Shown: positions 1 to 40,452, counted from the first letter of the stretch. The stretch is 41,161 nucleotides of DNA from Aduncisulcus paluster (GCA_024181965.1 BQXS01010044.1:1-41161); one strand, 5' to 3'. Program-made: numbers and translations. Notes: generated from the sequence alone by a model not told the origin.

Positions 1-204
1 AATCTAAAAATATTATCTATATATTTACTTATCGTTGCAATTTATAATCAGTTAATAATAATAATAATAACTTATTATTATCAAATTAGATAAGATCCAC
101 TCACACCAATTATAGTTTATAACTTGAATAATATTTTTTGATGCGTTGAAAAAACAAAAAAATAGAAATCGAAATATTGCCTCGATCATTTATGAAAACC
201 CGTC

Positions 205-2319
205 TTAAATCTCATCTTCTTCAAGATGTATACCAACGGTACGATCATGGTAATGAGTCATCTCTTGCAACATTCTTGGACAAGGCATTCTGACACCCGA
301 CCCACCCGAAAAGGCCGATTGAGGTTGAGTACGAGCTCCAAGAATAAAATTAAACCCAACAGTATTTCCAACAGGTTTGGATGATTCCTCATCCATCGCT
401 CTGCTCCTGTGAAGCATCTTTTCAGCAATCTCTTCACTCTCAGAGTGGGACCTCGAAAGGTGGGGTTCAGACAAGTGAGATTCAACCTCGAGTTCAAACT
501 TTCTCCTTGCTGCCTCCGAGATATGGCCGTCACTTTTCCCAACAATCTCACCCTGCCTGATAGCTTGCATCTCTTGTTCTCTCTCGGATGCATGGAGAGA
601 GACATCATCAAGACCAATAGAACCATCCCGTTTGTCATGCAGAAGATCCTCACGGCTCCTGGAACGTTCAGCATCAATAGAACGACGATTGAATATCCCT
701 TCACTGCCCAAAATCTCAATAGAAGCACGAGGAGTTATGTGGGCACTTGAGACGACGGATGCACTAGTCGAGGAAGCAACTCCTTTCCGCAAATGCTCAT
801 AAATTGTGTGGTGTACAGTGATCTCAAGCTCTTCAAGAAGATCCGCTTCATCATCAGGGGGCACTTTACAGAACCATCGTTGGAAATATTTTTTATCCAT
901 TCGTGAGAACCATTTACCAAACTTATTGGAAGTCCCAAGCATACCTTCTCCTGTCGAAACAAGCATGGGAAGAGCACGAGTGAGTGTTTTAAAGGCCAAA
1001 GACTGACCTTTACCAACACTTTTCTTTAGGTTTATGTCCAATCCTTTCAATATAGGTTTGATTGTGGATCCTTGAAGGAACACAGTGAACATAACGACAA
1101 ATAAAGCACATGCAATGATCATGTCTTTGTTGTCTTCGCCTCCAAACACTTCAGCCTCGAGAGTCAACGTTAGGGCGAATGCAATGGCTCCACGAAGTCC
1201 CCCATAGCACAAAATAAACTGTTCCTTCAGAGATATGGGCTGAAGTCGCATTTTGTTCACGAATAGAGACAAAAATGGAACAACTACAAACCTAGACACC
1301 GTGATGAATAGAATTGTCCACCAAATATACTTCCAATCCCAGATAACTCCAGAAGATGATAAACTCATTCCCAGCATGAAGAAAACAAAGGTCTCAGAGA
1401 TGGATGAGAGCATTTTGAGCATAATTTCAGAAGCTGTTCTACAAGAGTCAAACAGGTTCTTTTTGGTATAGTGATCCATGATAATACCACACGTAAGAAT
1501 GGATACAATACCACTCAGAGAGAAAATTTCAGCCATCAGATATGACGTGTATGCAAAGAGGATGAGGAAGAAAGGTTCAATGTGTCTTGGAATACCCTCA
1601 ATTTTAATCAACAGAGCACTGATAAGACCAAATATAAGGCCAACAATAAGACCTCCGCATGCTACAATTACGAACTTGGCGACGGCAAGGAATCCCGAGG
1701 CGACAGAAACATGGCCATCCTCAGCCATTCCTTTGAAAACATTATAAAGGACGATGGATATGGCATCATTGAGAACAGATTCACCCGATAAAACCATTCC
1801 GAGGGTGTCATTGACATGAACTTCATCAAAAATGGAGAGAACTGCAATGGGATCAACAGCAGATATAACCGCACCAAAAGCAAGACATTGGAGCATATTC
1901 AGCTGAATTTCGGTAAACCCAGCATTCATAACAAGAAATAAAAGACCACCAGTAATGAAGGTGTTTAGAAGGGTTCCAATCAGAGCGAACACCAAAATAG
2001 TTCCTAAATTGCCAAAGAAATAATCTTTTCGCATATGAAATCCTTCCTGAAGGATAATGGGAGGGATTAGAACTGCAAAAAACATCTCGGGATTCAGAGC
2101 TTCCACATATTTAAGAGAATCATGTTCTATGTGACCTAAAGCAAAAGGTAAACCAAGTAAAGCCCCTGCAATAATAAAAAGAGATGATTCTGGCAAAAAT
2201 TTTATGTGATATTTATGGACAAGTGTTGCCAATAAGGATGTAATGATAAAAAAGGATAAAATCACAAGAAATGTGAGAGAAAAGCCATCTGTATGTATAT
2301 GAATCAGTGAATTTGTCAT
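205..2319 (-). CDS. Na+/H+ exchanger, CPA1 (NHE/NHX, SLC9-like) family
   Basis: 704-aa ORF with ~12 hydrophobic segments and CPA1 motifs LPES, FFAVLIPPII, FFGNLGTILVFALIGT, ISAVDPIAVL, GESVLNDA and GGLRGAIAFAL, followed by a hydrophilic C-terminal tail. Confidence 0.95.
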   Translation of the reverse strand: MTNSLIHIHTDGFSLTFLVILSFFIITSLLATLVHKYHIKFLPESSLFIIAGALLGLPFALGHIEHDSLKYVEALNPEMFFAVLIPPIILQEGFHMRKDYFFGNLGTILVFALIGTLLNTFITGGLLFLVMNAGFTEIQLNMLQCLAFGAVISAVDPIAVLSIFDEVHVNDTLGMVLSGESVLNDAISIVLYNVFKGMAEDGHVSVASGFLAVAKFVIVACGGLIVGLIFGLISALLIKIEGIPRHIEPFFLILFAYTSYLMAEIFSLSGIVSILTCGIIMDHYTKKNLFDSCRTASEIMLKMLSSISETFVFFMLGMSLSSSGVIWDWKYIWWTILFITVSRFVVVPFLSLFVNKMRLQPISLKEQFILCYGGLRGAIAFALTLTLEAEVFGGEDNKDMIIACALFVVMFTVFLQGSTIKPILKGLDINLKKSVGKGQSLAFKTLTRALPMLVSTGEGMLGTSNKFGKWFSRMDKKYFQRWFCKVPPDDEADLLEELEITVHHTIYEHLRKGVASSTSASVVSSAHITPRASIEILGSEGIFNRRSIDAERSRSREDLLHDKRDGSIGLDDVSLHASEREQEMQAIRQGEIVGKSDGHISEAARRKFELEVESHLSEPHLSRSHSESEEIAEKMLHRSRAMDEESSKPVGNTVGFNFILGARTQPQSAFSGGSGVRMPCPRMLQEMTHYHDRTVGIHLEEDEI

Positions 2320-2693
2320 AATTTAAAGATCGATATCAAATTATTAAATGAATATATCCGTCCACAAAAAGCTGGCAGTAAATTTTGTCTGGAGAATATG
2401 ATATGGTAAAATAGATGATGATTCACAACTCAGCAGAGTTATTTTTTTAAATAAGAAGAAAAGAGGAAAAATATTATGGTTCAAAACTCCTTGGAGCAGT
2501 TGGTGTAGTCATATCTACAACACAGGTAATACAGCCACCTTTAGTATAAAAAAATCCATGAGTTGACTTCACTATTTATTAAAAAAAATATGGATTTGTT
2601 GTTATTTTATACAAACTATGACATATATGACTTTTTCTTCTTACGTGACCATAATGCAATAAATCCAATTGAATATAGACTATAATTTAATTT

Positions 2694-3575
2694 TCACTTC
2701 TTCTTTTTGGTTTTCTTAGCATCTTGATCTTCCTCTGAATCCTCTCCGGATATCTCTTTTGCAACCTTTTCCTTAAGTCCAAGAAATTCTCTGTGAACGG
2801 CAATTGATATGGCTTTTCTCAACATATCTTCATCAACAGTTCCTCCTGCAACCTTGATTCCCTCGTCTACAGCCTTTTTAGCGGCTTCTTCAACAGCCTG
2901 TAAAACCTCTTCATCATCAATATGCCCAACTTCGCCGGAAGAAATAGCTTCGAAGCGACCACTATCGAGAGGAGCGAGCTGATATTTCATTTCAATCGTT
3001 TTAACTTCATTTCCTTTTTCATCTTCTGTCGCAACTTCCTCTCGTTTATACAAATAATCAGTAGCTTTCAAAATTTGCTTTCCAGCTGTTCCTACGCATT
3101 TCAGATTAATTAATGGTTTGGATATTAATGAATACCTGTATAAACGCCAAAAAGCAATAATATTTTCAACAAAAAATGTGAGAACAGCTCGACTTTCAGC
3201 GATAGAAAAAACTAAAAAGCAAAATGGAGGACGATGAACAGAACATCTTGCAATTGCATGTTGTAAATGGTCCATTGCATCTTTTTCACTTTTATATGGA
3301 TTTTGTAATAGTTTGAGAAGAGACAACATAATAGAAAATACTGCGGTCGTTTGAGTCAATTTAAGATCCGAACTTAGACAAAAGGATATAGCGTTTTCAC
3401 ATATTTCATCGTATACCTCATATAAATCCTCATCATCCTTTGAATATTTGATAGAATCGTCCCAAGACATTTCAATGAAACGAATAACAGCTTCACGACG
3501 AATTGGTTCTTCATTTTCAGAATTTTGTAGGATCGTAATAACACATTTCGTGAGTTCTTCGTTTTGAGCTTTCAT
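2694..3575 (-). CDS. CFAP119: Flagellar central-pair C1a-32 / CFAP119 (CCDC189)-like protein
   Basis: 293 aa; SVHRPPFCFLVFS followed by FFVENIIAFWRLYRY matches the C1a-32 family signature as I recall it. Not database-checked. Confidence 0.75.
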   Translation of the reverse strand: MKAQNEELTKCVITILQNSENEEPIRREAVIRFIEMSWDDSIKYSKDDEDLYEVYDEICENAISFCLSSDLKLTQTTAVFSIMLSLLKLLQNPYKSEKDAMDHLQHAIARCSVHRPPFCFLVFSIAESRAVLTFFVENIIAFWRLYRYSLISKPLINLKCVGTAGKQILKATDYLYKREEVATEDEKGNEVKTIEMKYQLAPLDSGRFEAISSGEVGHIDDEEVLQAVEEAAKKAVDEGIKVAGGTVDEDMLRKAISIAVHREFLGLKEKVAKEISGEDSEEDQDAKKTKKKK

Positions 3576-3930
3576 ATTGACTCCAAAACATCAAATTCGC
3601 TTCAGTAGCAAACCTTAAAATATTCATGGACATACAAAGTAAAAAAACCATTTTTAATGANNNNNNNNNNNNNNNNNNNNGTATACCTCATATAAATCCT
3701 CATCATCCTTTGAATATTTGATAGAATCGTCCCAAGACATTTCAATGAAACGAATAACAGCTTCACGACGAATTGGTTCTTCATTTTCAGAATTTTGTAG
3801 GATCGTAATAACACATTTCGTGAGTTCTTCGTTTTGAGCTTTCATATTGACTCCAAAACATCAAATTCGCTTCAGTAGCAAACCTTAAAATATTCATGCA
3901 CATACAAAGTAAAAAAACCATTTTTAATGA
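3411..3930. other. Assembly artefact: 20-N gap (3661-3680) with duplicated flanks
   Basis: 3411-3660 is repeated at 3681-3930 with one mismatch (catgga/catgca). This creates a false second 5' end of the CFAP119 gene. Confidence 0.92.
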
Positions 3931-4040
3931 TGAGAAAATGAATTTACATCTAAATAAATGCCTAAATTTCGATTATTTTGGGATTTAGAGAAAAAGAATG
4001 GATTTGGGAGTATATTCTAAGATCCATTCCATATTTTTAG

Positions 4041-6488
4041 ATGGAAGACGATGAATCTATCATATTATCTCGGATTTCGAGGATATTAAGATACAACCCA
4101 GAGAATAAGGCTGAGTTTGTCGATACAGCTTCCCAACTTATTGATGATTCGATTAATTTATATTTATACTCTGACCATATTTTTAGAACTATTTGTGATA
4201 TGATTGAAGAGCAATACACATGCATGCCTCGCTTGGCCGCAATTTTAAATATGATAAATTCTCACCTCCCCGATATCGGGTCAGATATGATTTCTTGTAT
4301 ATTGTTGAGGTATATTCGTCATTATTATTCTATTATTACAATGAATATTGAGGGCAAAACTATAAAATATGATGTAAAAAAGAAAGCTATCTCAATCTCA
4401 AATTCTTTTCAAGCTCTATGTGAATTTTTAGGACATTTATGCACCCAACGTCTGATTTCATCTAACTTTTTGCTTTATTTACTGACTATATCCTTTACTC
4501 CGATCGTGAATAATGATATTCTCCATGGGGCTCTCCACTGTTTGAAGATTTCTGGGGCTAGAGTGTCTAAGCAATTGCCGAGTTCATATAGGAAGATATT
4601 AAACAACATTGTTTCATATGGTAAACTTAGCAGTGTAAAAAGAGCTACAAGAGTAGAAATTCTTCGCTTAGAACAGCGTTCCTCACAGTTTCGAAGGGTA
4701 TCAACTTCGGGCTTAACATTTGCCAGTCGTCCTGATGAAAATCCATATGTTCCTGCAATATACGATGTTGTTCCACCTTCGATGGTACATGAATACAAGC
4801 ATTCTCTTGACACGTTGGTCCAAGTCAAGGATCTCTCTGAATATCTTTCTACTTTATGGCGAATAAGCATTAAACAAAAAGAGGAGAAACAAAAGAGGAA
4901 ACAAAGGAAGAGAATGCGTTCGGATAGTAGTAGCGATATTTCGATAGAGAGTCCCATGTTGAATCCAAAGATTCGGCCAATTGAGGATTTTTTGGTTCAT
5001 TTTTCTCCCATTTTTGTATCTCTTAAAGATCTTTCTGCTCGTGATAGACACTCTCTCCAACTCAAGTGGGAAATAGCCATCAAGAGAATATTTGGGGAGG
5101 AGGAAGAAGAGGAAGAGGAGGAAGAAGAAGGACGAGGAAAAGAGGAGGAAGATCATGAAAACGATGAAAATGAAGGGAGAGAGAGAGAAGAAGAGGAAAG
5201 TGAAGAAAGGAAGATAGTTGAAGAAAACGATCAAAAGTCAAGGGAAGATTATTCGAAAGGTGAAGAGGAAACTCTTTACAATAGCAAAATTGGGTCAAAG
5301 AAAGTCTCATCGTCTCCCTCAGCTCCCTCATCTTCCTCTTCTCCTGATCTTGTTGACGGTTACGACGATGGTGAGGATGCAAAGCGTTTTCAGACTCATT
5401 ATCGTGATCGTGAGGAACGAGATGCTTCTCCTGAGCGACGCAAGCATGTCGAGCAAGTTAATTATGAAATTGGAGCAGATTATGTTGATGTGACTGATAT
5501 TCGCACTATGAATTTCCGCAGAAGGGTTAATCTGACCCATATGAGTTCGGTGACGGCCGATGAAGCCATAGAAAAGTTGATGAGAGATGGAATACTGGAG
5601 GAACAAGTCGATCCTCTCCTCGAAATGTTGCTTTTGGGTGCGAAGAATGAGCGTGCCATCCGTAACATATATGGAAACATGGTCACTTTGTTGTGCAGAC
5701 ATGGAGTGTGCTCATCGTTGCCAAAGCCTCTGAAGCGGAGATATTCTCGTCCTGCTCTGGGTCCATCCAAGATTAGGATTCATCCTGATGTGTTTGTTCA
5801 ATCTTTCATTCGTCTCTTCCAACAAGAATATGACAAACTTGAGGAATATTCAGACGATCAGATGATACGAAATGCAGCTCAGTTCTTTGGAGTTGTCCTC
5901 AGAGAGCAAGTAGTCCCGTTTGATGACTGTTTGACTATTGTTCGCATATCTGGTGACACAACTTGTTCTGAACAACGAAAGTTTCTCAAATATTTATTTT
6001 TAACTATTCTTGGTGGAGTTTCTGTGAAAGATCTCTCTTCCTATATGTATAGGAATGCCGACACGCCAGAAATTGTCCAGGCAAGAAAACAATGGAAAAG
6101 GGCCAAAAAGGAATATGATGTTGCACTGAAGAAACGAGAGAAAGCAGAAGCAGCATTGACGCATCAAAACCTTGTTAATGGAAGGGATTCTCTGTCGCAA
6201 GATGGTGCTCCTTCTCTTCCACCAATGCCTATACCTCTCCCACCACCACCTCCTCCTCCTCTTCCACTCTCTTCCCTCTTGCCGTGTGACTATCTTCACA
6301 ACACGTTGTACGCGATAACTTTTTACAAGGGCATTGGAGGAGGCGTTGAGAAAATTGCGAAGGGTCTTGAAGAGTGGAAAGAGAAGAATCTCGTTCATGA
6401 AGAGGAAGAGGGAGAGGAAGAGGAGGATGAAGATGGAGAAGAATATGAATACGAATATGAAGAGATCGAGGAAGAAGAAGCTGAGTAA
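4041..6488 (+). CDS. CWC22: Pre-mRNA splicing factor CWC22 homolog (MIF4G + MA3), divergent
   Basis: MA3-region motifs NFRRRVNLTHMSSVTADEAIEKLM, IRNAAQFFGVVL, TTCSEQRKFLKYLF and NTLYAITFYKGIG parallel CWC22 (RRTIYLTIMSS, LRNVAKFFAHLL, TTSSSRIFVKILF, NTRFAINFFTSIG). It has a helical N-terminal domain and an acidic linker. Confidence 0.85.
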   Translation: MEDDESIILSRISRILRYNPENKAEFVDTASQLIDDSINLYLYSDHIFRTICDMIEEQYTCMPRLAAILNMINSHLPDIGSDMISCILLRYIRHYYSIITMNIEGKTIKYDVKKKAISISNSFQALCEFLGHLCTQRLISSNFLLYLLTISFTPIVNNDILHGALHCLKISGARVSKQLPSSYRKILNNIVSYGKLSSVKRATRVEILRLEQRSSQFRRVSTSGLTFASRPDENPYVPAIYDVVPPSMVHEYKHSLDTLVQVKDLSEYLSTLWRISIKQKEEKQKRKQRKRMRSDSSSDISIESPMLNPKIRPIEDFLVHFSPIFVSLKDLSARDRHSLQLKWEIAIKRIFGEEEEEEEEEEEGRGKEEEDHENDENEGREREEEESEERKIVEENDQKSREDYSKGEEETLYNSKIGSKKVSSSPSAPSSSSSPDLVDGYDDGEDAKRFQTHYRDREERDASPERRKHVEQVNYEIGADYVDVTDIRTMNFRRRVNLTHMSSVTADEAIEKLMRDGILEEQVDPLLEMLLLGAKNERAIRNIYGNMVTLLCRHGVCSSLPKPLKRRYSRPALGPSKIRIHPDVFVQSFIRLFQQEYDKLEEYSDDQMIRNAAQFFGVVLREQVVPFDDCLTIVRISGDTTCSEQRKFLKYLFLTILGGVSVKDLSSYMYRNADTPEIVQARKQWKRAKKEYDVALKKREKAEAALTHQNLVNGRDSLSQDGAPSLPPMPIPLPPPPPPPLPLSSLLPCDYLHNTLYAITFYKGIGGGVEKIAKGLEEWKEKNLVHEEEEGEEEEDEDGEEYEYEYEEIEEEEAE

Positions 6489-6642
6489 GTAAATACATTA
6501 CTGTTGATTTTTGCAAATGCTTTTGATATCCAAAGTCATACTCATTGAAAAAGGATCAATCAATATTGAAAACTCCCATCTTATCAACCTGACGGATAAT
6601 ATACACCTTAACATCGAACAAATAAAAAGAAATAGACATAAA

Positions 6643-7179
6643 TTAAATCCATGGCTTGTAAGAAAGACGATCAATTGTTTCCCACTCAAGTTCTTTTTCT
6701 TGATCAGCGAGGAAACGAATCCCAAAAAAGGTACAAAATCCAGCTTTAGGACATTTAGATACAATATGAATATCACACGATATAACATTTTCAATTCCAA
6801 CTGGAAATGATTGCCAAAAAACCTGATATGGACGGAGTTCTTTCATCTCGTATTCTTTTTTGATTTTGGCTCCTTCCAAGCAAGAAAATTCAGCATTAAA
6901 TTCCACTATTTTATCATCATAACTATGATGACATATATAGAGCTCCTTAATGGGGCGTGGTTTGTCAAAAGATAGAAACAAATTGGGATAGAAACGAAGT
7001 TTTGCTTCACCTTGAAGAAATTTAAACAAATTATCATGATCCATATCCTTTAGACCTTCAGCAGTTGCTTTTGTCTCATCTATTGGAATAACACCATGAT
7101 GACCAACAGGAAAAGGCCCACGATAATAATTAGTGTCATATAACCCATATATCAAAGCTTCTGAACCGAATATTCTCAT
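6643..7179 (-). CDS. Hypothetical protein, probable beta-sandwich domain of a lineage-specific family
   Basis: 178-aa ATG-to-TAA ORF with alternating beta-strand patterns (LFLSFDKPRPIKELYICH, WQSFPVGIENVISCDIHI, FFGIRF). No recognised family. Confidence 0.6.
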   Translation of the reverse strand: MRIFGSEALIYGLYDTNYYRGPFPVGHHGVIPIDETKATAEGLKDMDHDNLFKFLQGEAKLRFYPNLFLSFDKPRPIKELYICHHSYDDKIVEFNAEFSCLEGAKIKKEYEMKELRPYQVFWQSFPVGIENVISCDIHIVSKCPKAGFCTFFGIRFLADQEKELEWETIDRLSYKPWI

Positions 7180-7266
7180 ATGTGTTTAATAATTTTCAAA
7201 ATATCAAGTGATGACTTTGTTATCTCCTTGAATAGTCTGATATGCAAGGTGTTGTGGTAGCAAAAT

Positions 7267-7318
7267 TCACTGTCACAGTGATTTCAAATCGTCAAGTTGA
7301 CGGTCAAAATCAATATTG
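7267..7318. repeat. Chain of overlapping 1-nt-spacer palindromes
   Basis: TCACTGT-c-ACAGTGA, GATTT-c-AAATC, CGTCAA-g-TTGACG, TTGAC-g-GTCAA and CAATATTG. Confidence 0.9.
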
Positions 7319-7797
7319 TGTTAAATCGATGATACCGATCCACATGTCAAAAATTAATACCAATTTTGTTTAAAATAATAAATAAAGAGGCCTTTTTTAA
7401 TTTTTAGTTCCGCTGAAACCCTTCATATATAGCTGGAATTAACTCGCTATTTTCAACTTGAAAAGGTTTTGAAAACCTGTTTTTTCTGCCAATGATCTGC
7501 ATTTATACTCTATTTCCCAATTTTATCTTTCTTTATTTCAAATATGATCTAATTAATTGATCTTTGTAGAGCTTGAAATAGAGTGACACAAGCTCCTTGC
7601 GCTGATGCAACAGTTCCAGACGTTCATTACAGAATTTTTTTAATATGTTTTTATTATTAATGTTTAATAAAATGTATCTATAAGCTCATCTTATTGCTCA
7701 AAAACAATTTTTAATTTCAGTTGAATTTTTAGATTCTTTTTCTCTCGCTTGTTGTTATATCCACACTTGTCTTTTTTGTTGATTTATCATAAATTCA

Positions 7798-8280
7798 ATG
7801 GCTATTATTTATTCTTTGTATTTTAAGTGTGAAATGGAAGGTATCACCTCCATTAAGCCCTTTTCTCATATTGTGAATACTCAGATCAAATGTACTTCTT
7901 GTGGTCATGTTCATGATGGTATTTGTATCGATTATCATACGGCAATCGAATCAAAAAGAGGTCGTGGAACCTTTAATCTTGTTATGAAGTGTAAAGATTG
8001 TAAAAGAGATATGACAGCTGTGTTAATGAATTTACCCTCAATAGAATATACTGAGGAGAATGGCAGTGATTTTGCTAAGCTTGTCGGCATTAAAACAACC
8101 GGATGTGAGATTACTGGTTTTGTTCTCGAAAAGTTTACTGGAATCTCCGAAGGAGGAGCACCCATCGATGAGATTATCATTGATGAAGATGGTAGTTTCG
8201 CCGATTATATTGATGCAACAGATGAAACGGTATCAATAATGGAATACGACACGAAAATCGAGTTCACGCGTTCCAAGTAA
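7798..8280 (+). CDS. CZIB: CXXC-motif zinc-binding protein (DUF866/C1orf123)
   Basis: 160 aa with KCTSCG and RGTFNLVMKCKDCKR CXXC pairs and a C-terminal FADY...ETVSI; size is typical of the family. Confidence 0.9.
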   Translation: MAIIYSLYFKCEMEGITSIKPFSHIVNTQIKCTSCGHVHDGICIDYHTAIESKRGRGTFNLVMKCKDCKRDMTAVLMNLPSIEYTEENGSDFAKLVGIKTTGCEITGFVLEKFTGISEGGAPIDEIIIDEDGSFADYIDATDETVSIMEYDTKIEFTRSK

Positions 8281-8360
8281 TCAACAGCGATGAAACTTCA
8301 TATATTATTGAATATACAGAATAAATTGGATTTTAAATTTCCCTTATGTTTCCACATCAT

Positions 8361-8419
8361 TCAGATCTGAGATCAGGCAATGATTTTGATCAGGGCCCCT
8401 GAGAAGCCCGGGGCTTCTC
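8361..8419. repeat. GC-rich palindrome chain
   Basis: TCAGATCTGA, GATCT-g-AGATC, TCAGGG-c-CCCTGA and GAGAAGCCC-g-GGGCTTCTC. Confidence 0.9.
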
Positions 8420-8595
8420 GGAAGATCAATGAAGCGAAAAATTACAAATAATCATTGTATTTATTATTTTTTTGTATTTTACGAAATCAAATGAGTGTAA
8501 TCTAAAATCAAAATTGATTATCAATCAGTTCAACTCGGCAAGATAAGAAAAATTGATTCTTGCAAACCTCAATTCCAACTTTGACGCATCATCCA

Positions 8596-10549: not shown

Positions 10550-10728
10550 TAATCTTAAATTATCTGAACATTTCAAAGATTGAGAAATATTTTCTCGAGG
10601 ATTTTGACTCAGTAAATCTGTGAATTGATTGTGTGATCTGGATCTCCCATTCTTACGAAGTACATGCGAGAGAATCCTTGATTCGTGAAATAAATAGAGT
10701 GGACCAGAAAATATATCAATTCATAACT

Positions 10729-10783
10729 TACGACTCGTATGTCTCATTCGGAATGAGACACATGAAATTCACACGTGAATTTC
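10729..10783. repeat. Three near-abutting palindromes
   Basis: TACGA-c-TCGTA, TGTCTCATTC-g-GAATGAGACA and GAAATTCAC-ac-GTGAATTTC. Confidence 0.9.
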
Positions 10784-11201
10784 CACCAAGAATACAAAAA
10801 GAATGTCAGGTAAAGCGAGTGGAATCATTTTATATAGTCCAGAAAACTCAAAATGCACGAGAAAATTGATTGAACAAACCAATACACACTGACATTGTGA
10901 AAGAATGTGAAACTATCAGGGAACCAGGATCTAATATTCAGCTATATATTTTGTTTCTTGTATATATATCTATAAACAGCAACTTATATACATTATAATG
11001 TCTTGACCCCTAATATTCAACGAGAAATATGATTTTTTGCATTTCTCGTCAATTTACTTAAAGTTTCATGAATTTGATATTTAATCCTTTAATTAAAACC
11101 TTATAAACACTTAAAAATTATTTATTGGAAAATTTATATGGTCAGGGAAAATGATTAAAAAAATTCCAGCAATTTCTTTGCATATTGTCCATTTTGTGAT
11201 A

Positions 11202-23258: not shown

Positions 23259-23536
23259 GCAAGATTAATAAGAGTTTCATAATATTTTTTTTTTAGTTAT
23301 ATTTTTCTTTCGCTTTTTAATTATTTTTAAAAATATATCGTCATTTTTTATTTTTTTATTATTATTTATACTATCTTTTGTCATTATTTGTGTCATTTTT
23401 CTCTTTATTTTCAAGTATCATTCAAATAGTATAATTTCAACGTTTCCAATGGTCGTTGTATCGAACTCACTCATTTTCTAAATATAGATAAGTTGGTTCA
23501 TTATTTTTCAAAATGTCGATCGTAGGCTTCTTTGTT

Positions 23537-23562
23537 TATATATATAATATATATATATATAT
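23537..23562. repeat. Imperfect (TA)n microsatellite
   Basis: tatatatataatatatatatatatat seen directly. Confidence 0.8.
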
Positions 23563-24656
23563 TTCTGCGATTATCTTCATTTTTCTTTTTGCTTGGTTTT
23601 GCTTTGAGACTCCATTGCCCTGACAAACCTGTTTTTAATCAATCAAAGATTTCTCTCATTTGTGTTGTTTGTTCCAAAAATAGATTTCAAACGGCTCAAG
23701 GAGAAAATATGGCCGAGATAAAATTTGACAAAAAATTAAATTTTTATATTATATTCGTTTCGGGCGTCATTTTCTAAAATGTTGTTATTTAATCTATGCT
23801 TATTATAACATAAACTTGATATATGATTGTTTTAATTTAAATTTTATTTTATTTACTTGCTTAGTTCTTAATTATCGTTGAATGCTGCTAATTTCTTCTA
23901 TCATGAAGAAATTCACGGGATTTTGTTTGATATTCGAATAAGAAATAGATGATTCGGTTTCAACTGGATATATCCTAATATTTTCACATATTACCTTCTT
24001 TACGGTTGGAATTCAATCATAGATCATTCTCGCCGAACTTCTTCGGAGAAATAAATGTTAATATATGTCACGTGACAAAAAGATCAATATAGAATCGAAC
24101 TTGAGGAGTTTTATGATATAAAATAGGAATATAATGTCACGATTTGAGTCAAATATTTTGATTTGTGGAGAGGGGTGTTGAAAATATCATATATGCCTGA
24201 AAATGAAAACATTTGGGAATAAAAGTTGCATATTATCCGTGGTAATTCATAGAAAATAATGGACAATGAATAATGACCAGAGAATTATGTGATGAGCTCT
24301 GGTTTTCGAAATTCAAATGATTCTTTGGATAGACACGAAATACCAAAATATTCAGGATCAAATCACATGCTACACTGTGGCCAGTACCATTTTGATTCAT
24401 GGATTCCCCAATAATAATCCTATAATATGCACGATAATACCGGATATGAGTATCAAAATCCATTGAACTCAAATAACATTCCAGCCTCAAATATGGAGTT
24501 CATAATTTCATTGCATGTTCTTTGTATCCAATTTAAGTGAAAAGGAGGGAATATTCACAAGAAACTCGGAGCAAAACCAAGACATTTCAAAAGAAGTTCT
24601 TTTGACAACATTCCACCGTCAATCACGATTTTTTTTCGATCAAATCTAGATTTCTA

Positions 24657-28862: not shown

Positions 28863-29366
28863 AAGTTATCAATGTAACCAATACCAACCTTCGTTTTTTC
28901 CAAGTCTCTGAATGACTGGTTGTAATATATCCATGAATCCAAATCCAGAGCATAATTTGAGTTTATCGATCATTGCAATTTGCAATAATGTTTTCCCTGA
29001 ATAACAAACACGATTTGTCTTATTTTCTCTCATAAATCAAAGATTTATTTATAAAACCCCCTTAATCTAGCAAGAACTAGCATTTTTAGCAAGAATAGAA
29101 ATAAGGTGTTCTATTTTTAGAAAATCTATTTTTAGAATTGTCATTTCAAAAATGTCATAAAAACTCCATTTTCAACGTTTTTGAAGCTTTACTTTTTCTC
29201 CTAGCGGAGTTTGGAAGATAGTTGGACACATAGGTGTAGGCGACGTAATAAAGAGGCTCATAATCTCGGAGAATGGTATGGATGTTTTTAAAGTGAAACA
29301 TTGTCGAACAAAGGATTAATTCCGATATTACAGGAATCTCATTGAATGATTCAGTTTTCATGATGA

Positions 29367-32300
29367 TTACTTATTAGTTGTGGATGAACCAATTTCACAT
29401 TCTTTCTTTCTCTTTTCCCAAACACATTCTAGAGCTTCATTAACACTCTCAAAATGAACCATTCCTTTCATTCCCATTGATGCCAAATCAGTACACACAT
29501 TTTCACTCTCTCCAGGAGGTGTGGCACAAACGCACACCACTCTTGTATTTGTATCTTCAAGCTTCTCAGATGGTGATTTGGTTTCCCATGTCCACTCATC
29601 ATTTGGATTGACTAGAGATGATTCCTTGTCTCCTTCTTTCTCCCAGACCCAAAGTGCCTTGAAATAGCATTGTAAAACACCAGCAACTTCCTCTGACGTT
29701 GCCAACATAACTCCCTTGATTCTCTCCTCCACAGGAACCCATTTAGATTCGGTTAGAACACTCTCCATGATGCTACTAGCCTTTTCGTAGGAAGTATCAC
29801 ACTCAGTTGAAATCAAGTTGAAGATGGCCGATCTCTTCGCCTGATCAAGAGCAGAGGAAGAGGACAACAATAGACGGTACCCTTCATTCTCTTCATCAGT
29901 ATCATCAAGAACAGCTCTCATCCCACACACGAGCTCCTTCATATTGGTTACAGAAGAGCAAGAGCACCACACACCAGTGAGTCTTGTTGAGAATCCATAA
30001 CTGTACACGCATCCTTTGCCACGAACTCGACGCCATAACTCTCCTTCACATTGGTTCAAAAGATCGATAGCAGTGTCTATAATAGGGCAGAGAGGAGAGG
30101 AAGTGGTCGGTCTACCTTGTCGATCAAAGAAGGAAGAAGAGGAAGAAGAAGTGTCAGATTTACCGCAGAGCCCACAATAACATTTCTTCCCCTTGCCAAC
30201 TCCCTGACACATAATTCGTTGCACCTTTCCCAAAGATGGGTAAGGAATGTATGAATATAGAGTCGTACCCTCACTGCCACACACTGGGAAAGCCATTGAG
30301 TAAGGACACAAAGGAGGGATTCGGGGATGCAGGAAAGAAGAGAATGGGATATCTGAGCTTTGAGAAATTAGTCCCGAGATGTGTGCATGCCGTTCAGAAA
30401 TATCAGGAGATAAATGAGATACATCAACATCAGGACCGATTCCAAGCATGTTATTTACCATATTCCCTTCGAGTAATTCGTGCAAACACTCCTCAGCATC
30501 AAGAGATGATCCCACTCCACCGCCAAGGTTAAAGGGACCCGTGAGAACGAGGATAGGAGGTCTCACGAACAATTTCTCAAAGGTAGTTTGGATAAGATTG
30601 AACAAATCTTTGGGCCCTAGCTTATCCTGGGGCTGATCAGGTGTGGAAGAAACGGTTGATTCCGATACTCTAGTTGTCTTTTCTGACTGTGCTTCATCAC
30701 CGAGACCAAATATCTCCCAGACATTATGTTTTAAACTCATTCCACAACGTTTTGACACAAGATCATGCGTAAGATCACGAATAAGAACGTTAACTAACAA
30801 AGAACAAAGATAACCACTCACGGCAAGCATTCCTTCCCACCGAAGGTTTAGCCTATTTGAAGACGAAGTTATGATAGAGTTGTCAAAGTTCAAAGGAGCA
30901 AAAGCCTGCGCAAATAGAAGGGCTAAATTAGTCGAGAGAGTGGAAATAGCACAGTTTGGTTCGGCTTTCTCTCCCTTTTCTATCTCTTTCCTCTTGCTAG
31001 ATACCCCTCTATCCAAGCGATTTCCAAGACAAGGCACTTTCTTCCAAGGTTTTATCTCAGTGCAAGATATCGACGACTCTTTTGGAATAATACTCGATGT
31101 GACAGTTGAACTCAGACATTGGGGATAGTAGCAACTTGATGACAGAGGAGATGCTCCCATGGCGATACCCATCGAAGAGGACACCGAATGTTCCAAGAAG
31201 ACATTCCTAGCCTGTGATGAAGGGAGATGTGCGATTGTGTATAGTTTCTTGTCATCACCATCACTGTGTGTGTCGTGTTCTTGTGTCATGTGAGAGTTAT
31301 TCTTGTTCATGACAACCAAGTCAACACCACTGTCATCAACTGCGTCACACATTATTCCAGTCACACTGCCTTCACGGATGGACATGGCATCTGTGGACAA
31401 AATTAAACGAGATCTGAGGAAGGAAGAAGGGGAGGAAATCACAAGTAGTGGGAAAGGGAGAGATGGCGAGGACATGAGATATGGTTGAGAAATGTACTGC
31501 AAGGAACCNNNNNNNNNNNNNNNNNNNNCTGTCATCAACTGCGTCACACATTATTCCAGTCACACTGCCTTCACGGATGGACATGGCATCTGTGGACAAA
31601 ATTAAACGAGATCTGAGGAAGGAAGAAGGGGAGGAAATCACAAGTAGTGGGAAAGGGAGAGATGGCGAGGACATGAGATATGGTTGAGAAATGTACTGCA
31701 AGGAACCAGAAGAAGTGGATACACAGACACTTCTGGATTGTGAAATGAAAGCCCAAGTATCTATTTTGGGAGACAACTGAGAAAGTTGATGAGAAGGAGT
31801 GATTATTCTTGTAGCGTCAATTCCCATTCTTGCATATAATATCCACTGTAATTTGGTTGTCGATATATTGAGAGGGTTTGGAAGAGGATTAATAAGTTCT
31901 TTACATAATTTAGGCAAATCTTTTGTGTCTTTCTCAAGTTTCATTGCTCTGACATTCTCTTCTCTCTCTTTAGCTTCTTTCTCGATTTTAGAAAGAGAAG
32001 CCAACTCAGATTCCCATTGTTTTTTGATAAGTTTCTTCCTTTTCTCAATGCTTTCCTTGATTGCTTTGCTTTTTTCCTCACATGGTAAAGAAAGAAGGAC
32101 AAATGATGGGTATGGGATTGGAGAATGTGTAGTATCTTGTTCAGTACTAAAAATAGATTCAGACTCTGATTTCTCCTTTGTCACAATCGAATTATCATTC
32201 ATACACATGAATCTCTTCCGAATATCTTCCCATTGAGATACATCCCAAGAGGCCAACTCAGTGTAACTAAGCAGGGAAAGGGAGGGAGGGTGGTGATGCG

Positions 32301-34913: not shown

Positions 34914-35325
34914 TTTAATGTCTTTTATAATTTGATTGATTTACAATATCCATGATACGGATGATGGCAAGTCCAATCCTTGATTAAGAAGTATATAGAT
35001 AGTCAGAAAAACTTTTCATGATGTTTTTAATATTATCTTATATATATCTACAAATTGGCATTATAATATTACGACAATCCTTTATAATTCGCGAGATAAA
35101 CCTATTTTATCATTTGATCCTAATATCAAATGATATATACTTTCAATATTTTATAATCTTCCAGATAAATGGATATCAGCAACAAGATATTACCTACACA
35201 CTTGAAACAAGAAGGAAGAAAGAATTGTTGAATAAATGATGATTTTGTTCTAGGGGAATATACATTAAAGTGTAAAAACATTTATTAAATCAAATATATT
35301 GAAAAACTAAAGAATATATATCTCT

Positions 35326-37976: not shown

Positions 37977-37999
37977 AGAGTGCTGGCATTAACTGTTTT

Positions 38000-38198
38000 T
38001 CAGTCCGACTGATCTGAATTTCAAATATCTGAAGAAATAGAAAGTTTGTGCCACAAACTGTGGCAGTGCCAGAGACTTTGTGAAGCTTGAAGCTTCTAAT
38101 ATATTGCAATAAATTCAGTTTTTTGCACTGTCGTAGAAAATCATTATACGTGGTGCAAATAATTTGTTCCTTGGAAATTTTGAAGCAAAATTTTTGCT
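38000..38198. repeat. Palindrome array upstream of the Myb gene
   Basis: TCAGTC-c-GACTGA, AGTTTGTG-c-CACAAACT, TGGCA-g-TGCCA, GAAGCTT-g-AAGCTTC, TATTGCAATA, CAAAT-a-ATTTG and AGCAAAA-t-TTTTGCT. Confidence 0.9.
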
Positions 38199-38242
38199 GA
38201 AATTTTAAGTTTGGTTCATAAACCAAAAAATTAAAGAAAATC

Positions 38243-39289: not shown

Positions 39290-39962
39290 TCGTTAACAAA
39301 TATTTTTTCACATATCTTTTTGTTGACAGGTTCTCTTTGAAGAACTACAAAACATAATTTTTGCGATACTTATATATTTGATTTTATCTTATTTATTTTT
39401 ATCTTTTATATGGTTAATTTTCTCATGTTGTCATGAAATTATCAACCATTTTCAATGTCTTTCTCCTAATTTCTCCATTTCTTTTAAAATGCTATAATTA
39501 TCTTAATTATCGAGTTTTTTTTAATATATTATATATATTGATTGTGATGTTCTTTACTAGGTGTCTATTTTTTCAATAATGATTACTTTAAAACTAATTG
39601 GAAGATTTTCTTTTCACGTTTCTTCTTTCCAACGTACTCTTACTGATGCTTTCAGAATGCTCTGAAATATCTTTATGCTATCCTCTTAATGTCTCTCTTT
39701 ATCAGCTGCCTAAAATAGACCATACACAAACTAATTTTAAGAATCTTATTTTTTTCTTTGTCTTTCTTCTTTCTCCTTTGCGAAATGATTTGTTCTCTTG
39801 TTTGCGACTCTTTTTTTCAGGCCTAACTATTAACATTAGCAATGTCATATGTCCTTTTCTCTATTGTGTTCATCCACATATGGCATGGCTGCGTAGCTTT
39901 TTCGTTGACTTCCAATCAATTGAAAACCCCGAATACTTACTAACTTAATTAATGATTATTTG

Positions 39963-39966
<4 letters not shown>

Positions 39967-40003
<37 letters not shown>
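39967..40003. repeat. (TA)n microsatellite, ~18 units
   Basis: Perfect TA run seen directly. Confidence 0.95.
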
Positions 40004-40005
<2 letters not shown>

Positions 40006-40452
40006 ATATTATTGGCTCCTGTTTTTCTATCAACACATGACGAATGATTGCTATACCGTACTGTACTATTGCTTGTTAGCGGTTGTGTGTTATTTGTATT
40101 TTTGTCTTTTTAATAGAGGCTGTATTTTTTCTTAATTTTTCTGGTTTTTGAGTTTATATTTACGGTATAAATATATTATTAACCCTGGTATTTTCCTTAT
40201 TTTCATCGCTATCACATGATTTTTTGTTCTCTTTACATAATAATACTCTGTAATGAACTGTATCAAATAATAAATGGCCAAATCTGAATATCATTTTGAT
40301 TTCTGACAATATTACGGACTCCATGAAGTTCATGGCATGAACTCGAAGTGGATCTTCGCGACACGAGTGAAATATGGAATAAATAATGTTTAAGAATTAA
40401 TTGTTTCAATGGTGATCCACAATATTGAATTTTGATGCGATAATAAATATAG

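What the first reader, a model, noticed from the sequence alone, without database searches (positions are those of the whole stretch)
61..40343. Window-wide system of sequence-unrelated palindromes with a single central base in intergenic DNA
Seen: 13 perfect inverted repeats with arms of 7 bp or more and exactly one spacer base, at 61-81, 7267-7281, 7450-7464, 7464-7478, 8401-8419, 10740-10760, 24587-24605, 28972-28986, 38043-38059, 38082-38096, 38184-38198, 40321-40335 and 40327-40343, plus many with 5-6 bp arms next to them. The arms share no consensus, 11 of the 13 centres are C or G despite the AT-rich context, and many palindromes abut or overlap in chains. Rough hand estimate: ~6 kb of intergenic DNA at an assumed ~70% AT gives about 1 by chance. 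Inference: geometry rather than sequence is being conserved or generated. Candidates are (a) cruciform/hairpin-defined promoters or replication origins (Carpediemonas species are known to lack ORC/Cdc6, relevant only if the taxonomic guess holds); (b) scars of hairpin-opening or iterative fold-back repair in open chromatin; (c) triloop RNA hairpins in UTRs. I did not scan coding regions exhaustively.
Basis: partly seen in the sequence, partly recalled or inferred. Interest (0 to 1): 0.85.

Follow-up and report, generated by a model that had tools for sequence, protein, structure and literature searches.

The report
Palindromic excision scars between genes
The DNA between the genes of this little-known flagellate is littered with short perfect palindromes built around a single G or C, and the way they sit in pairs looks like the repair scars a jumping DNA element leaves each time it cuts itself out.

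Summary
All 13 listed palindromes are perfect. In 7,297 nt of noncoding DNA, spacer-1 repeats with arms of 7 or more number 16 against 1.4 in dinucleotide shuffles (0 of 300 reach it), and 1 against 3.4 in 33.9 kb of coding DNA.

With low-complexity DNA removed, the excess is specific. Spacer 1 gives 13 against 1.1, spacer 0 gives 0 against 1.0, and mirror repeats give 1 against 0.9. It lies almost wholly in G/C-centred palindromes: 11 against 0.4, versus 2 against 0.6 for A/T centres.

Abutting palindromes follow a hidden rule. The left one is centred on C and the right one on G, and the 2 nt before the C recur after the G. This holds for 5 of 6 abutting pairs, plus a sixth pair nested around one of them.

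That layout is a 2-bp target-site duplication, a constant end base, and inverted copies of both flanks. It matches hairpin-mediated transposon excision footprints, as known for Ac/Ds. I read the palindromes as repair scars, not functional elements (confidence about 0.55).

No element or transposase lies in the window, and no genome is held. The origin and RNA-hairpin readings gain no support.

The parts
7267..7307 (.). Nested double scar. The outer pair is 7267-7281 (centre C) with 7297-7307 (centre G), repeated dinucleotide GT. The inner pair is 7280-7290 (C) with 7290-7302 (G), repeated dinucleotide TT, 1-nt overlap.
   Evidence: Taking out 7285-7298 leaves the two outer palindromes 1 nt apart.
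7450..7478 (.). Paired scar: 7450-7464 (centre C, arms 7) with 7464-7478 (centre G, arms 7); repeated dinucleotide AA; 1-nt overlap at the joint.
8390..8419 (.). Paired scar: 8390-8402 (centre C, arms 6) with 8401-8419 (centre G, arms 9); repeated dinucleotide GG; 2-nt overlap.
   Evidence: covered without differences by an X1 contig.
10729..10760 (.). Paired scar: 10729-10739 (centre C, arms 5) with 10740-10760 (centre G, arms 10); repeated dinucleotide GA; arms abut exactly. It is followed at 10764-10783 by an unexplained repeat with 9-nt arms and a 2-nt spacer.
   Evidence: covered by X1 and X2 contigs.
38043..38071 (.). Paired scar: 38043-38059 (centre C, arms 8) with 38061-38071 (centre G, arms 5); repeated dinucleotide TG; 1 filler base between them.
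61..81 (.). Single G/C-centred palindrome (centre C, arms 10). The left arm is part of a TAA microsatellite and the right arm is its inverted copy.
   Evidence: covered by an X1 contig.
24587..24605 (.). Single palindrome (centre G, arms 9). Read on the minus strand, G plus the expected dinucleotide sits at the joint with a 2-nt overlap.
24142..24154 (.). Single palindrome (centre G, arms 6).
38000..38012 (.). Single palindrome (centre C, arms 6). The expected dinucleotide TC follows directly.
38082..38096 (.). Palindrome (centre G, arms 7). It can also be read as a tandem duplication of a 7-mer that holds a 6-bp even palindrome, so its origin is ambiguous.
   Evidence: and direct reading.
40321..40343 (.). 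Two overlapping G-centred palindromes (arms 7 and 8) forming a zigzag of three copies of one 6-mer. Possibly two successive events; they do not fit the pair rule.
29339..29353 (.). Two overlapping G-centred palindromes (arms 5), about 15-25 nt beyond the stop codon of the minus-strand gene 29367-31547.
8364..8374 (.). Single palindrome (centre G, arms 5), 16 nt before the 8390-8419 pair.
7192..7202 (.). C-centred, A/T-rich palindrome with 5-nt arms, 13-23 nt upstream of a start codon. With 7534-7544 (arms 5), 7782-7794 (arms 6) and 40992-41002 (centre G, arms 5) it belongs to the weakest class, some of which are expected by chance (5.0 expected at arms of 5 or more).

Best explanation
The palindromes are repair scars, not working elements. 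The proposed sequence of events is as follows. A cut-and-paste DNA element whose ends carry a constant C...G (or G...C) base pair inserts into spacer DNA and makes a 2-bp target-site duplication. When it excises, the transposase seals each flank into a DNA hairpin with that one terminal base at the tip. A host nuclease opens each hairpin 5-10 nt away from the tip, and fill-in turns the opened arm into a perfect inverted copy of the flank (a long P-nucleotide tract). The two ends are then joined with 0-2 nt of overlap. The result is: flank, xy, C, inverted flank, joint, inverted flank, G, xy, flank. That is two abutting odd palindromes of unrelated sequence, or one palindrome when only one side keeps a long tract. 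Shown here: the statistics, the G/C-only centres, the C-then-G order, the 2-nt repeat and the background-like arms. Inferred: the element, its ends, the hairpin step and the nuclease. An element that keeps hopping, often to nearby sites, would leave many scars and few copies. That would explain both the clusters and the nested scar.
For: (1) The excess is specific to reverse-complement symmetry with one central base: 13 against 1.10, with spacers 0 and 2 and the mirror-repeat control at chance. (2) The excess lies in G/C centres. In noncoding DNA at arms of 7 or more, S-centred are 11 against 0.41 and W-centred 5 against 0.89 (2 against 0.62 after the low-complexity filter). At arms of 5 or more, S-centred are 26 against 5.0 and W-centred 15 against 10.7. 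A constant tip base explains this; copying of A/T-rich flanks alone would not. (3) Of 6 abutting pairs with arms of 5 or more, 5 have centre C then G and share the dinucleotide before C and after G. The null frequency is 0.025 among 638 non-adjacent ordered pairs, giving a binomial P of 5.8e-8; the pattern was noticed post hoc. Against 200 shuffles this composite occurs 5 times against 0.01 expected; the orders G..C, C..C and G..G with the same rule occur 0 times, and coding DNA has 0. (4) The sixth abutting pair (7267/7280, C..C) resolves as a nested event. 7267-7281 pairs by the same rule with 7297-7307, and removing the inner scar brings them 1 nt apart. (5) Joints overlap by 1, 1 and 2 nt, abut exactly (1 pair), or hold 1 filler base (the nested outer pair is 1 nt apart after removal), as in microhomology-assisted end joining. 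(6) Arms have background composition (33% against 30.5% GC) and no consensus, as expected of copies of whatever flanks the break. (7) 16 of 17 lie in noncoding DNA, where insertions and scars are tolerated. (8) There is precedent. Ac/Ds footprints are palindromic P-nucleotide insertions on either side of the joint, each centred on one base, with arms up to 20 nt in yeast and microhomology at joints (PMC5873905, passages). Flank hairpins are shown for MULE, hAT, Transib and RAG1 (PMC5499845, passages). The EnSpm-Mirage-Chapaev-Transib clade mostly has 5'-CA..TG-3' ends and 2-5 bp duplications (PMC12730594, passage).
Against: No element with terminal inverted repeats and no transposase domain lies in the 41-kb window, and no genome is held to look further. 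The pair rule rests on 5 pairs plus 1 nested pair from one window and was found post hoc. Isolated palindromes do not show the expected partner more often than chance: 6 of 14 have the dinucleotide at offsets -2..+1, where roughly 4-5 are expected by my rough estimate. The classical hAT geometry is not met. There the centre is the complement of a flanking base and the duplication is 8 bp. A 4-bp CNNG variant also fails, with the predicted third base present in only 2 of 6 left arms and 2 of 6 right arms (my reading of the and 61 listings). Retention of exactly one element base at a hairpin tip is not a mechanism I found described. Two zigzags with two G centres (40321-40343, 29339-29353), the spacer-3 and spacer-6 excesses and the repeat at 10764-10783 are left unexplained. 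About 15 scars in 7.3 kb with no visible decayed copies (low power) needs a very active element or fast spacer turnover.
Confidence: 0.55

Rival explanations
1. The palindromes are scars of break repair or replication errors without any transposon. Candidates are fold-back (snap-back) priming at double-strand breaks, or template switching to the opposite strand at a stalled fork, possibly triggered by a lesion at a G:C pair. Each would write a short inverted copy of the adjacent sequence.
For: Perfect arms with sharp ends and background composition. Restriction to noncoding DNA. Clusters and zigzags such as 40321-40343 that look like repeated turn-arounds. Modest excess of short direct repeats at gaps of 0-3 nt, 8 against 2.7. 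Known processes do this: template-switch mutations make perfect inverted repeats in one event and are thought to bypass lesions (PMC10710096, passages). Very short fold-back inversions of 5-34 bp form at yeast breaks (PMC11724301, abstract and section 15).
Against: These processes use pre-existing microhomology, so loop length and parity should vary. The yeast case has a 41-nt loop (PMC11724301, section 15). Here spacer 1 dominates and spacers 0 and 2 are at chance. A one-base loop cannot prime within a single strand (established hairpin sterics; not tested here). Nothing in these models supplies a constant C on the left and G on the right, or a 2-nt direct repeat across the pair. That would need a 2-nt staggered break, fill-in and addition of one C to both 3' ends, for which I know no precedent.
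Confidence: 0.2
2. The palindromes are functional, geometry-defined elements: cruciform or hairpin signals for promoters, transcription termination or replication origins, or hairpins in RNA. They would be kept perfect by selection.
For: They are perfect, with no excess of imperfect copies. They cluster between transcription units at 85-235 nt past stop codons in four tandem or convergent spacers. Sequence-unrelated palindromes do mark transcript ends in giant viruses; I recall this 'hairpin rule' and saw only a search listing for PMC5413956. Short inverted repeats are enriched in yeast spacers, especially 3' flanks (PMC2908449, abstract and sections 14, 18, 28). Scars could also have been co-opted later.
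Against: A structural signal would tolerate or prefer 3-5 nt loops and would not require a paired base right next to a single central base. It would not demand G/C at the centre, nor a C-then-G order with a 2-nt direct repeat. Arms are not G+C-enriched. Stems containing G-U pairs show no general excess: sp3 on the plus strand, 10 against 2.6, is the one exception, and the other spacers are at chance. The palindromes fill a divergent spacer as well (7267-7478). Contigs guessed to be RNA from two studies stop near 10636-10672, before the 10729-10783 cluster (a weak hint). No Rfam family or tRNA matches. Arms of 5-7 bp are short for cruciform extrusion (general knowledge, not tested).
Confidence: 0.1
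3. The pattern is chance, base composition, simple-repeat effects or an assembly or library artefact.
For: Some items have trivial origins. 23537-23557 and 23731-23745 are A/T low complexity. 28972-28986 and 38082-38096 can be read as tandem duplications of a 7-mer containing an even palindrome (direct reading). The assembly has flaws: duplicated stretches beside N gaps and a missing GG.
Against: 0 of 100 to 0 of 300 shuffles reach the observed counts under three shuffle schemes. The mirror-repeat control is flat. Independently built contigs of two libraries carry the same sequence where they were laid. Fold-back library artefacts would not respect coding boundaries, G/C centres or the pair rule.
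Confidence: 0.03

Closest known systems
Ac/Ds (hAT) excision footprints with palindromic P-nucleotide tracts, as sequenced in plants, S. cerevisiae and Candida albicans (PMC5873905, passages read; it cites Lazarow 2012, Huefner 2011 and Yu 2004, which I did not read)
   Same: Inverted repeats on either side of the repaired joint, each centred on a single base. Arms are copies of the flanks, so unrelated between sites. Arms reach up to 20 nt in yeast. Microhomology is frequent at the joint. A direct repeat (target-site duplication) brackets the scar.
   Different: In hAT the central base is the complement of the flanking base, so it varies by site, and the duplication is 8 bp. Here the centre is constantly C on the left and G on the right, and the bracketing repeat is 2 nt. 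That implies a different cleavage register (one element base kept at the tip) and a different superfamily. No element was seen here.
EnSpm/CACTA-Mirage-Chapaev-Transib clade of DNA transposons, and RAG1 (PMC12730594, passage; PMC5499845, passages)
   Same: Ends are mostly 5'-CA..TG-3' and duplications 2-5 bp. This fits an inferred C...G end with a 2-bp duplication. Transib and RAG1 make hairpins on the flanking DNA.
   Different: RAG-type hairpins are sealed exactly at the border and give even P palindromes (established V(D)J knowledge, recalled). Here the palindromes are odd. No transposase or terminal repeat was available to test membership.
Template-switch mutations and fold-back (snap-back) insertions at breaks (PMC10710096, passages; PMC11724301, abstract, section 15 and passages)
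   Same: Both create a perfect inverted copy of neighbouring sequence in one step, are enriched where selection is weak, and can be iterated into complex clusters.
   Different: Loop length depends on local microhomology. No constant central base, no fixed left-right order and no bracketing duplication are expected.
Short inverted repeats enriched in yeast intergenic DNA (PMC2908449, abstract and sections 14, 18, 28; PMC6420913, abstract only), and the survey of 118,019 genomes (PMC13155455, passages)
   Same: Perfect inverted repeats are more frequent than random and are concentrated between genes.
   Different: The yeast enrichment is modest (12.7% overall) and without a special spacer. Eukaryotes in the survey favour spacer 0, A/T-rich palindromes (arms of 10 or more). 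Here spacer 0 is at chance once the (TA)n tract is set aside, spacer 1 is about 12-fold enriched, and centres are G/C.
Giant-virus 'hairpin rule' palindromes at transcript 3' ends (recalled; PMC5413956 seen only in a search listing)
   Same: Sequence-unrelated palindromes in A/T-rich intergenic DNA.
   Different: This is a cellular eukaryote. Palindromes also occur in a divergent spacer. The one transcript end that could be guessed lies about 60-90 nt upstream of the nearest cluster (a weak hint).

Membership tests
Hairpin-intermediate transposon excision footprints (general kind) | An inverted copy of the flank on each side of the joint, each centred on a single base | tested here: met
   5 abutting pairs plus 1 nested pair; composite count 5 against 0.01 in shuffles.
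Hairpin-intermediate transposon excision footprints (general kind) | A direct repeat (target-site duplication) bracketing the scar | tested here: met
   The 2 nt before the left centre equal the 2 nt after the right centre in 5 of 6 abutting pairs (null 0.11; P = 8.7e-5) and in the nested pair.
Hairpin-intermediate transposon excision footprints (general kind) | Microhomology or small filler at the joint | tested here: inconclusive
   Overlaps of 1, 1 and 2 nt; 0 in one pair; 1 filler base in two. Compatible, but short overlaps arise by chance.
Hairpin-intermediate transposon excision footprints (general kind) | A matching mobile element and transposase in the same genome, with filled or empty site polymorphism | not testable with these tools
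   No genome is held. Within the window there is no terminal-inverted-repeat element and no transposase domain.
hAT (Ac/Ds, Hermes) footprints specifically | The central base is the complement of the flanking base next to the element, and the duplication is 8 bp | tested here: not met
   Centres are C/G far beyond background and in fixed order. The bracketing repeat is 2-3 nt, not 6-7. A 4-bp CNNG variant predicts a third base found in only 2 of 6 left and 2 of 6 right arms (reading of the and 61 listings).
EnSpm-Mirage-Chapaev-Transib clade element | 5'-CA..TG-3' ends with a 2-5 bp duplication, and a DDE transposase with the C(2)C and H(3-4)H motifs | tested here: inconclusive
   The inferred C...G tip bases and 2-nt repeat are compatible (PMC12730594, passage). 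Only one end base is inferred and no protein is available.
Template-switch or snap-back inverted insertions | A perfect inverted copy of adjacent sequence, with loop set by local microhomology and no constraint on the central base | tested here: not met
   Perfect copies: yes. But spacer 1 alone dominates, centres are G/C only, and there is a C-then-G order plus repeat rule.
Transcript-end hairpins (giant-virus hairpin rule, intrinsic terminators) | The palindrome coincides with the RNA 3' end; terminators have a run of T after the stem | tested here: not met
   Contigs guessed to be RNA stop near 10636-10672, before 10729-10783 (a weak hint). Palindromes lie in the divergent spacer 7180-7797. 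No Rfam match.
Cruciform-type replication origins or promoters | Extrusion-competent inverted repeats at mapped origins or start sites | not testable with these tools
   No origin or start-site maps exist. Arms of 5-10 bp with one central base are short for extrusion (general knowledge).

The most novel reading that the evidence does not exclude
The scars are not left by a transposon. They would come from an endogenous, recurrent break-and-repair process in spacers: 2-nt staggered breaks whose filled-in ends each gain one C and turn back on themselves. This would be an undescribed mutational pathway that continuously writes new hairpin-forming sequence into promoters and terminators of a compact genome, some of it later co-opted as geometry-defined signals (for example for termination or replication start).
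Probability: 0.1. Interest if true: 0.8.

Novelty: new variant of a known kind. Interest (0 to 1): 0.5.

Why it matters
If the reading holds, about 5% of this organism's spacer DNA is made of transposon excision scars: 336 of 7,297 nt lie in G/C-centred palindromes.

From the scars alone one can predict an unseen element, with a C...G end base, a 2-bp duplication and a flank hairpin carrying one element base at the tip. One can also predict a host that opens hairpins 5-10 nt from the tip.

That is a directly testable forecast for the rest of the genome of a deep, poorly sampled eukaryote lineage. The best homologue of one protein is only 43-44% identical, and another protein has no relatives at all.

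It would show excision footprints acting as a major source of new intergenic sequence and of ready-made hairpins. It also removes a tempting but unsupported link to replication without ORC.

Tried and rejected
- **Whole-genome test:** impossible, because no genome is held.
- **Earlier notes of this scan:** none for this genome. A word search returned only prokaryote palindromes.
- **Sequencing runs:** no RNA holder listed. The runs laid are contigs, so no starts, ends or strands could be read.
- **Relatives for comparing orthologous spacers:** none found. The Na+/H+ exchanger has best hits at 43-44% identity (428 proteins with E of 1e-20 or lower). The CLAMP-domain protein found only itself (1 of 1301 candidates). 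I therefore did not spend the metagenome scan.
- **Rfam and tRNA scans:** 0 matches.
- **RNA-level selection via G-U pairs:** no general excess. One class, spacer 3 on the plus strand, gave 10 against 2.6, and I did not pursue it.
- **Decayed copies:** classes with 1-3 mismatches are at chance, but the power is low for 7-nt arms.
- **hAT geometry:** 8-bp, 4-bp, 3-bp and 2-bp duplications were each worked through by hand and rejected (full report).
- **Tc1/mariner-type footprints:** rejected, because they carry constant element bases rather than inverted flank copies (recalled mechanism).
- **Cleavage of a pre-existing 5-bp palindrome with self-folding overhangs:** rejected, because it predicts the wrong orientation of the right inner dinucleotide.
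- **Partner search for isolated palindromes:** not above chance.
- **Non-abutting C..G pairs with the rule, gaps 3-40, arms of 4 or more:** 1 against 0.04; this is the nested one.
- **Outer TCA...TGA ends** of several palindromes were noted but not tested.
- **Supplements:** I did not open the supplementary files of any paper. Those of PMC5873905 and PMC5499845 may hold footprint tables that bear on arm lengths.

Full report
**Setting**

The window is a whole 41,161-nt contig of an intron-poor, gene-dense eukaryote. Long ORFs carry Na+/H+ exchanger, flagellar C1a-32 (CLAMP), MIF4G, eukaryotic CXXC zinc-binding, TPR-DnaJ, M16 peptidase and cyclin domains. There is also a 4,035-aa cysteine-rich protein with EGF-like repeats.

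The lineage is poorly sampled. The exchanger's best relatives are 43-44% identical and come from scattered eukaryotes. The CLAMP protein finds only itself. No genome is held, so everything below rests on this one window.

I defined noncoding DNA as 12 intervals totalling 7,297 nt (30.5% GC). The remaining 33,864 nt are coding (41.4% GC). The status of 39290-41161 as noncoding is uncertain: it has small ORFs only, with no Pfam hits.

All 13 listed repeats are perfect, with arms of 7-10 nt and one central base; 11 of 13 centres are C or G. A full scan finds 17. The 4 extra ones are two A/T low-complexity loci (3 hits) and one inside an ORF.

- Whole window: 17 against 4.2-4.9 under three dinucleotide-preserving shuffle schemes; 0 of 100 reach 17 in each.
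- Noncoding DNA: 16 against 1.38 (0 of 300). Coding DNA: 1 against 3.4.
- With low-complexity hits removed, the noncoding profile by spacer length (arms of 7 or more) is as follows:

| Spacer | Observed | Expected |
|---|---|---|
| 0 | 0 | 0.98 |
| 1 | 13 | 1.10 |
| 2 | 1 | 0.93 |
| 3 | 5 | 0.89 |
| 4 | 3 | 0.89 |
| 5 | 1 | 0.95 |
| 6 | 4 | 0.82 |
| 7 | 0 | 0.90 |
| 8 | 2 | 0.94 |

- Mirror repeats, which control for short-range self-similarity, show nothing at spacer 1 (1 against 0.89).
- Short direct repeats are only mildly enriched: gaps of 0-3 nt give 8 against 2.7.
- The repeat finder independently returns the same arms.
- Contigs assembled independently from run X1 (DNA, possibly the source data) match with no differences over 1-3410 and 6467-8952, and with one 2-nt insertion over 9214-12611. 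A contig of a second library (X2) covers 10613-12798. The palindromes in the first 12.6 kb are therefore not assembler quirks.

**Anatomy**

- The arms share no consensus and have background composition: 33% GC, with positions -1, -2, -4 and -5 background-like.
- The arms end sharply. Classes with 1-3 mismatches are at chance, though that test has little power for 7-nt arms.
- The longest arm is 10 nt.
- The excess is almost entirely in G/C-centred palindromes:

| Arms (noncoding) | G/C centre, observed vs expected | A/T centre, observed vs expected |
|---|---|---|
| 7 or more | 11 vs 0.41 | 5 vs 0.89 (2 vs 0.62 after the low-complexity filter) |
| 5 or more | 26 vs 5.0 | 15 vs 10.7 |

- Palindromes abut far more often than placement allows: 6 neighbours within -2..+1 nt, against 0.58 on random placement (0 of 5000) and 1.07 with a +-60-nt jitter (P = 0.0006).

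**The pair rule**

Reading the abutting pairs, I noticed a pattern in 5 of 6. The left palindrome is centred on C and the right one on G. The two bases just before the C recur just after the G. The dinucleotides are AA at 7450-7478, GG at 8390-8419, GA at 10729-10760, TT at 7280-7302 and TG at 38043-38071.

This pattern reads the same on the opposite strand, so the order G-then-C is a true alternative.

- Using all 638 non-adjacent ordered pairs of the 26 palindromes as the null, the joint pattern has frequency 0.025. Five of 6 then gives P = 5.8e-8. The pattern was found post hoc, so this figure should be discounted, but it survives any reasonable penalty.
- In a direct scan against 200 shuffles, the composite (arms of 4 or more, gap -2..+2) occurs 5 times against 0.01 expected. 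The orders G..C, C..C and G..G with the same rule occur 0 times, and coding DNA has 0.
- The one non-conforming abutting pair (7267-7281 with 7280-7290, both C) resolves as nesting. 7267-7281 (GT before C) pairs by the rule with 7297-7307 (G then GT). The conforming pair 7280-7302 sits between them. Removing 7285-7298 brings the outer two to within 1 nt.

So all four palindromes of that chain are accounted for by two successive events at one spot.

**What this layout means**

The layout is: flank, xy, C, inverted flank, joint, inverted flank, G, xy, flank. Formally this is a 2-bp direct duplication bracketing an insert. The insert consists of one constant base at each end plus inverted copies of the two flanks.

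This is the architecture of a hairpin-mediated excision footprint. For Ac/Ds, sequenced footprints show palindromic P-nucleotide insertions on either side of the joint. Each is centred on a single base. Arms reach up to 20 nt in S. cerevisiae, and 66 of 140 footprints have arms of 3 or more. Microhomology is frequent at the joint (PMC5873905, passages).

Flank hairpins are demonstrated for MULE, Hermes, Transib and RAG1 (PMC5499845, passages).

The joints here overlap by 1, 1 and 2 nt, abut exactly, or hold 1 filler base.

**Which kind of element?**

I worked the classical hAT register through by hand. There the tip base is the complement of the outermost duplicated base.

- An 8-bp duplication would give a 6-nt repeat across the scar. 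It is 2 nt here (3 in one pair).
- A 4-bp CNNG site would fit the centres. But it predicts C three bases before the left centre and G three bases after the right centre. Each is present in only 2 of 6 pairs.
- Duplications of 3 and 2 bp lead to contradictions.

The data require a 2-bp duplication of arbitrary sequence plus a constant tip base that does not come from the target. The simplest source is the element's own terminal base (5'-C...G-3', or G...C if the tip comes from the other strand). That means a cleavage register shifted by one base relative to hAT.

Ends of 5'-CA..TG-3' with 2-5 bp duplications characterise the EnSpm-Mirage-Chapaev-Transib clade (PMC12730594, passage). This is a lead, not a test.

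No terminal-inverted-repeat element and no transposase domain lies in the window.

An element that hops often leaves one scar per hop while its copy number stays low. So about 15 scars and no copy in 41 kb is not contradictory, but it does demand high activity. Local re-insertion would explain the clusters and the nesting (inference).

**What does not fit**

- Isolated palindromes do not show the expected partner dinucleotide at the joint more often than chance (6 of 14). Deletion on the partner side would have to be assumed.
- Two zigzags with two G centres (40321-40343, 29339-29353) do not obey the rule.
- The spacer-3 and spacer-6 excesses are unexplained. These include 35108-35135 with 11-nt arms and 23890-23913 with 9-nt arms. 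So is the 9-nt-arm repeat at 10764-10783.
- 28972-28986 and 38082-38096 can equally be tandem duplications of a 7-mer that contains an even palindrome (direct reading).

**Rivals**

Transposon-free fold-back or template switching explains perfect, background-like arms and clusters, and has precedent (PMC10710096, passages; PMC11724301, abstract and section 15). It predicts variable loops and unconstrained centres. It offers no source for the constant C/G or the bracketing repeat.

Functional hairpins or cruciforms would not need pairing right up to a single base, G/C centres or the pair rule.

- The arms are not G+C-enriched.
- The palindromes fill a divergent spacer.
- There is no Rfam match.
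- The 3' flank of the DnaJ gene carries an AGTAAA-type signal. Contigs guessed to be RNA from two studies stop near 10636-10672 while DNA contigs run on, about 60-90 nt before the nearest cluster (a weak hint only).

Chance and artefact are excluded as general explanations.

**Comparison with what is known**

Intergenic enrichment of perfect short inverted repeats is known in yeast. It is modest there and has no special spacer (PMC2908449, abstract and sections 14, 18, 28).

A survey of 118,019 genomes finds that eukaryotes favour spacer 0, A/T-rich palindromes (PMC13155455, passages; arms of 10 or more). The present pattern is different: spacer 1, G/C centre, about 12-fold excess.

My full-text searches did not return a description of the present pattern. 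The searches were for odd palindromes with inverted repeats, Carpediemonas with palindromic and intergenic, and excision footprints with hairpin and palindromic. That is not proof that none exists.

**Verdict**

The palindromes are most likely footprints of a hairpin-forming cut-and-paste element with C...G ends and a 2-bp duplication, in a host that opens hairpins far from the tip (confidence 0.55).

This is a new variant of a known kind and is of moderate interest. It makes a crisp genome-wide prediction.

Noticed in passing
window 3410-3681, 8952-9214, 12798-13072 (N gaps at 3661-3680, 9194-9213, 13052-13071): Contigs of runs X1 and X2 skip 261-273 nt that include each 20-N gap. The sequence beside each gap is duplicated in the window, which is a scaffolding artefact. 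It inflates some repeat counts (for example the same 11-13-nt palindromes at 3475/3745 and 13010/13283) and adds 87 spurious codons to the DnaJ ORF.
   Followed up: partly
window 10370: All four runs carry two extra G after 10370, so the window has a 2-nt deletion. With it the TPR-DnaJ ORF would run on to about 10550 instead of stopping at 10416.
   Followed up: partly
window 8278-8285, 6486-6497, 29360-29369, 2688-2696, 10611-10618: AGTAA(A/T)- or AGTGAA-like motifs overlap or closely follow several stop codons. This resembles the short poly(A) signals recalled for Giardia and hints at very short 3' UTRs.
   Followed up: no
window 35108-35135, 23890-23913, 40767-40788, 38187-38206: Perfect inverted repeats with a 6-nt spacer (arms 11, 9, 8 and 7) are also in excess in noncoding DNA (4 against 0.82). 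They do not fit the scar model and may be a separate class of hairpin.
   Followed up: no
window 8556-10672: Run X2 has a summed contig depth of roughly 17,000-100,000 over the TPR-DnaJ gene, against about 137-550 elsewhere. If X2 is RNA this suggests very high expression; the run type is only guessed.
   Followed up: no
window 7684 and 8191: One X2 contig and one X1 contig match the window up to these points and then continue for 255 nt of unrelated sequence. This could be an allele with an insertion, a paralogue or a chimeric contig. The first lies in the palindrome-rich spacer 7180-7797.
   Followed up: no
window 39967-40003: A (TA)18 microsatellite accounts for nearly all spacer-0 'palindromes' in the raw counts.
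   Followed up: yes
window 11151-23258: A 4,035-aa ORF has weak matches to teneurin-type EGF repeats and internal repeats that vary between contigs (18520-18903). It is a giant cysteine-rich surface-protein candidate.
   Followed up: no
S-centred palindromes, position -3 from the centre: The third base out from the centre is G or C in 13 of 26 palindromes, against about 30% expected. This may be a target-site preference and was not tested further.
   Followed up: no
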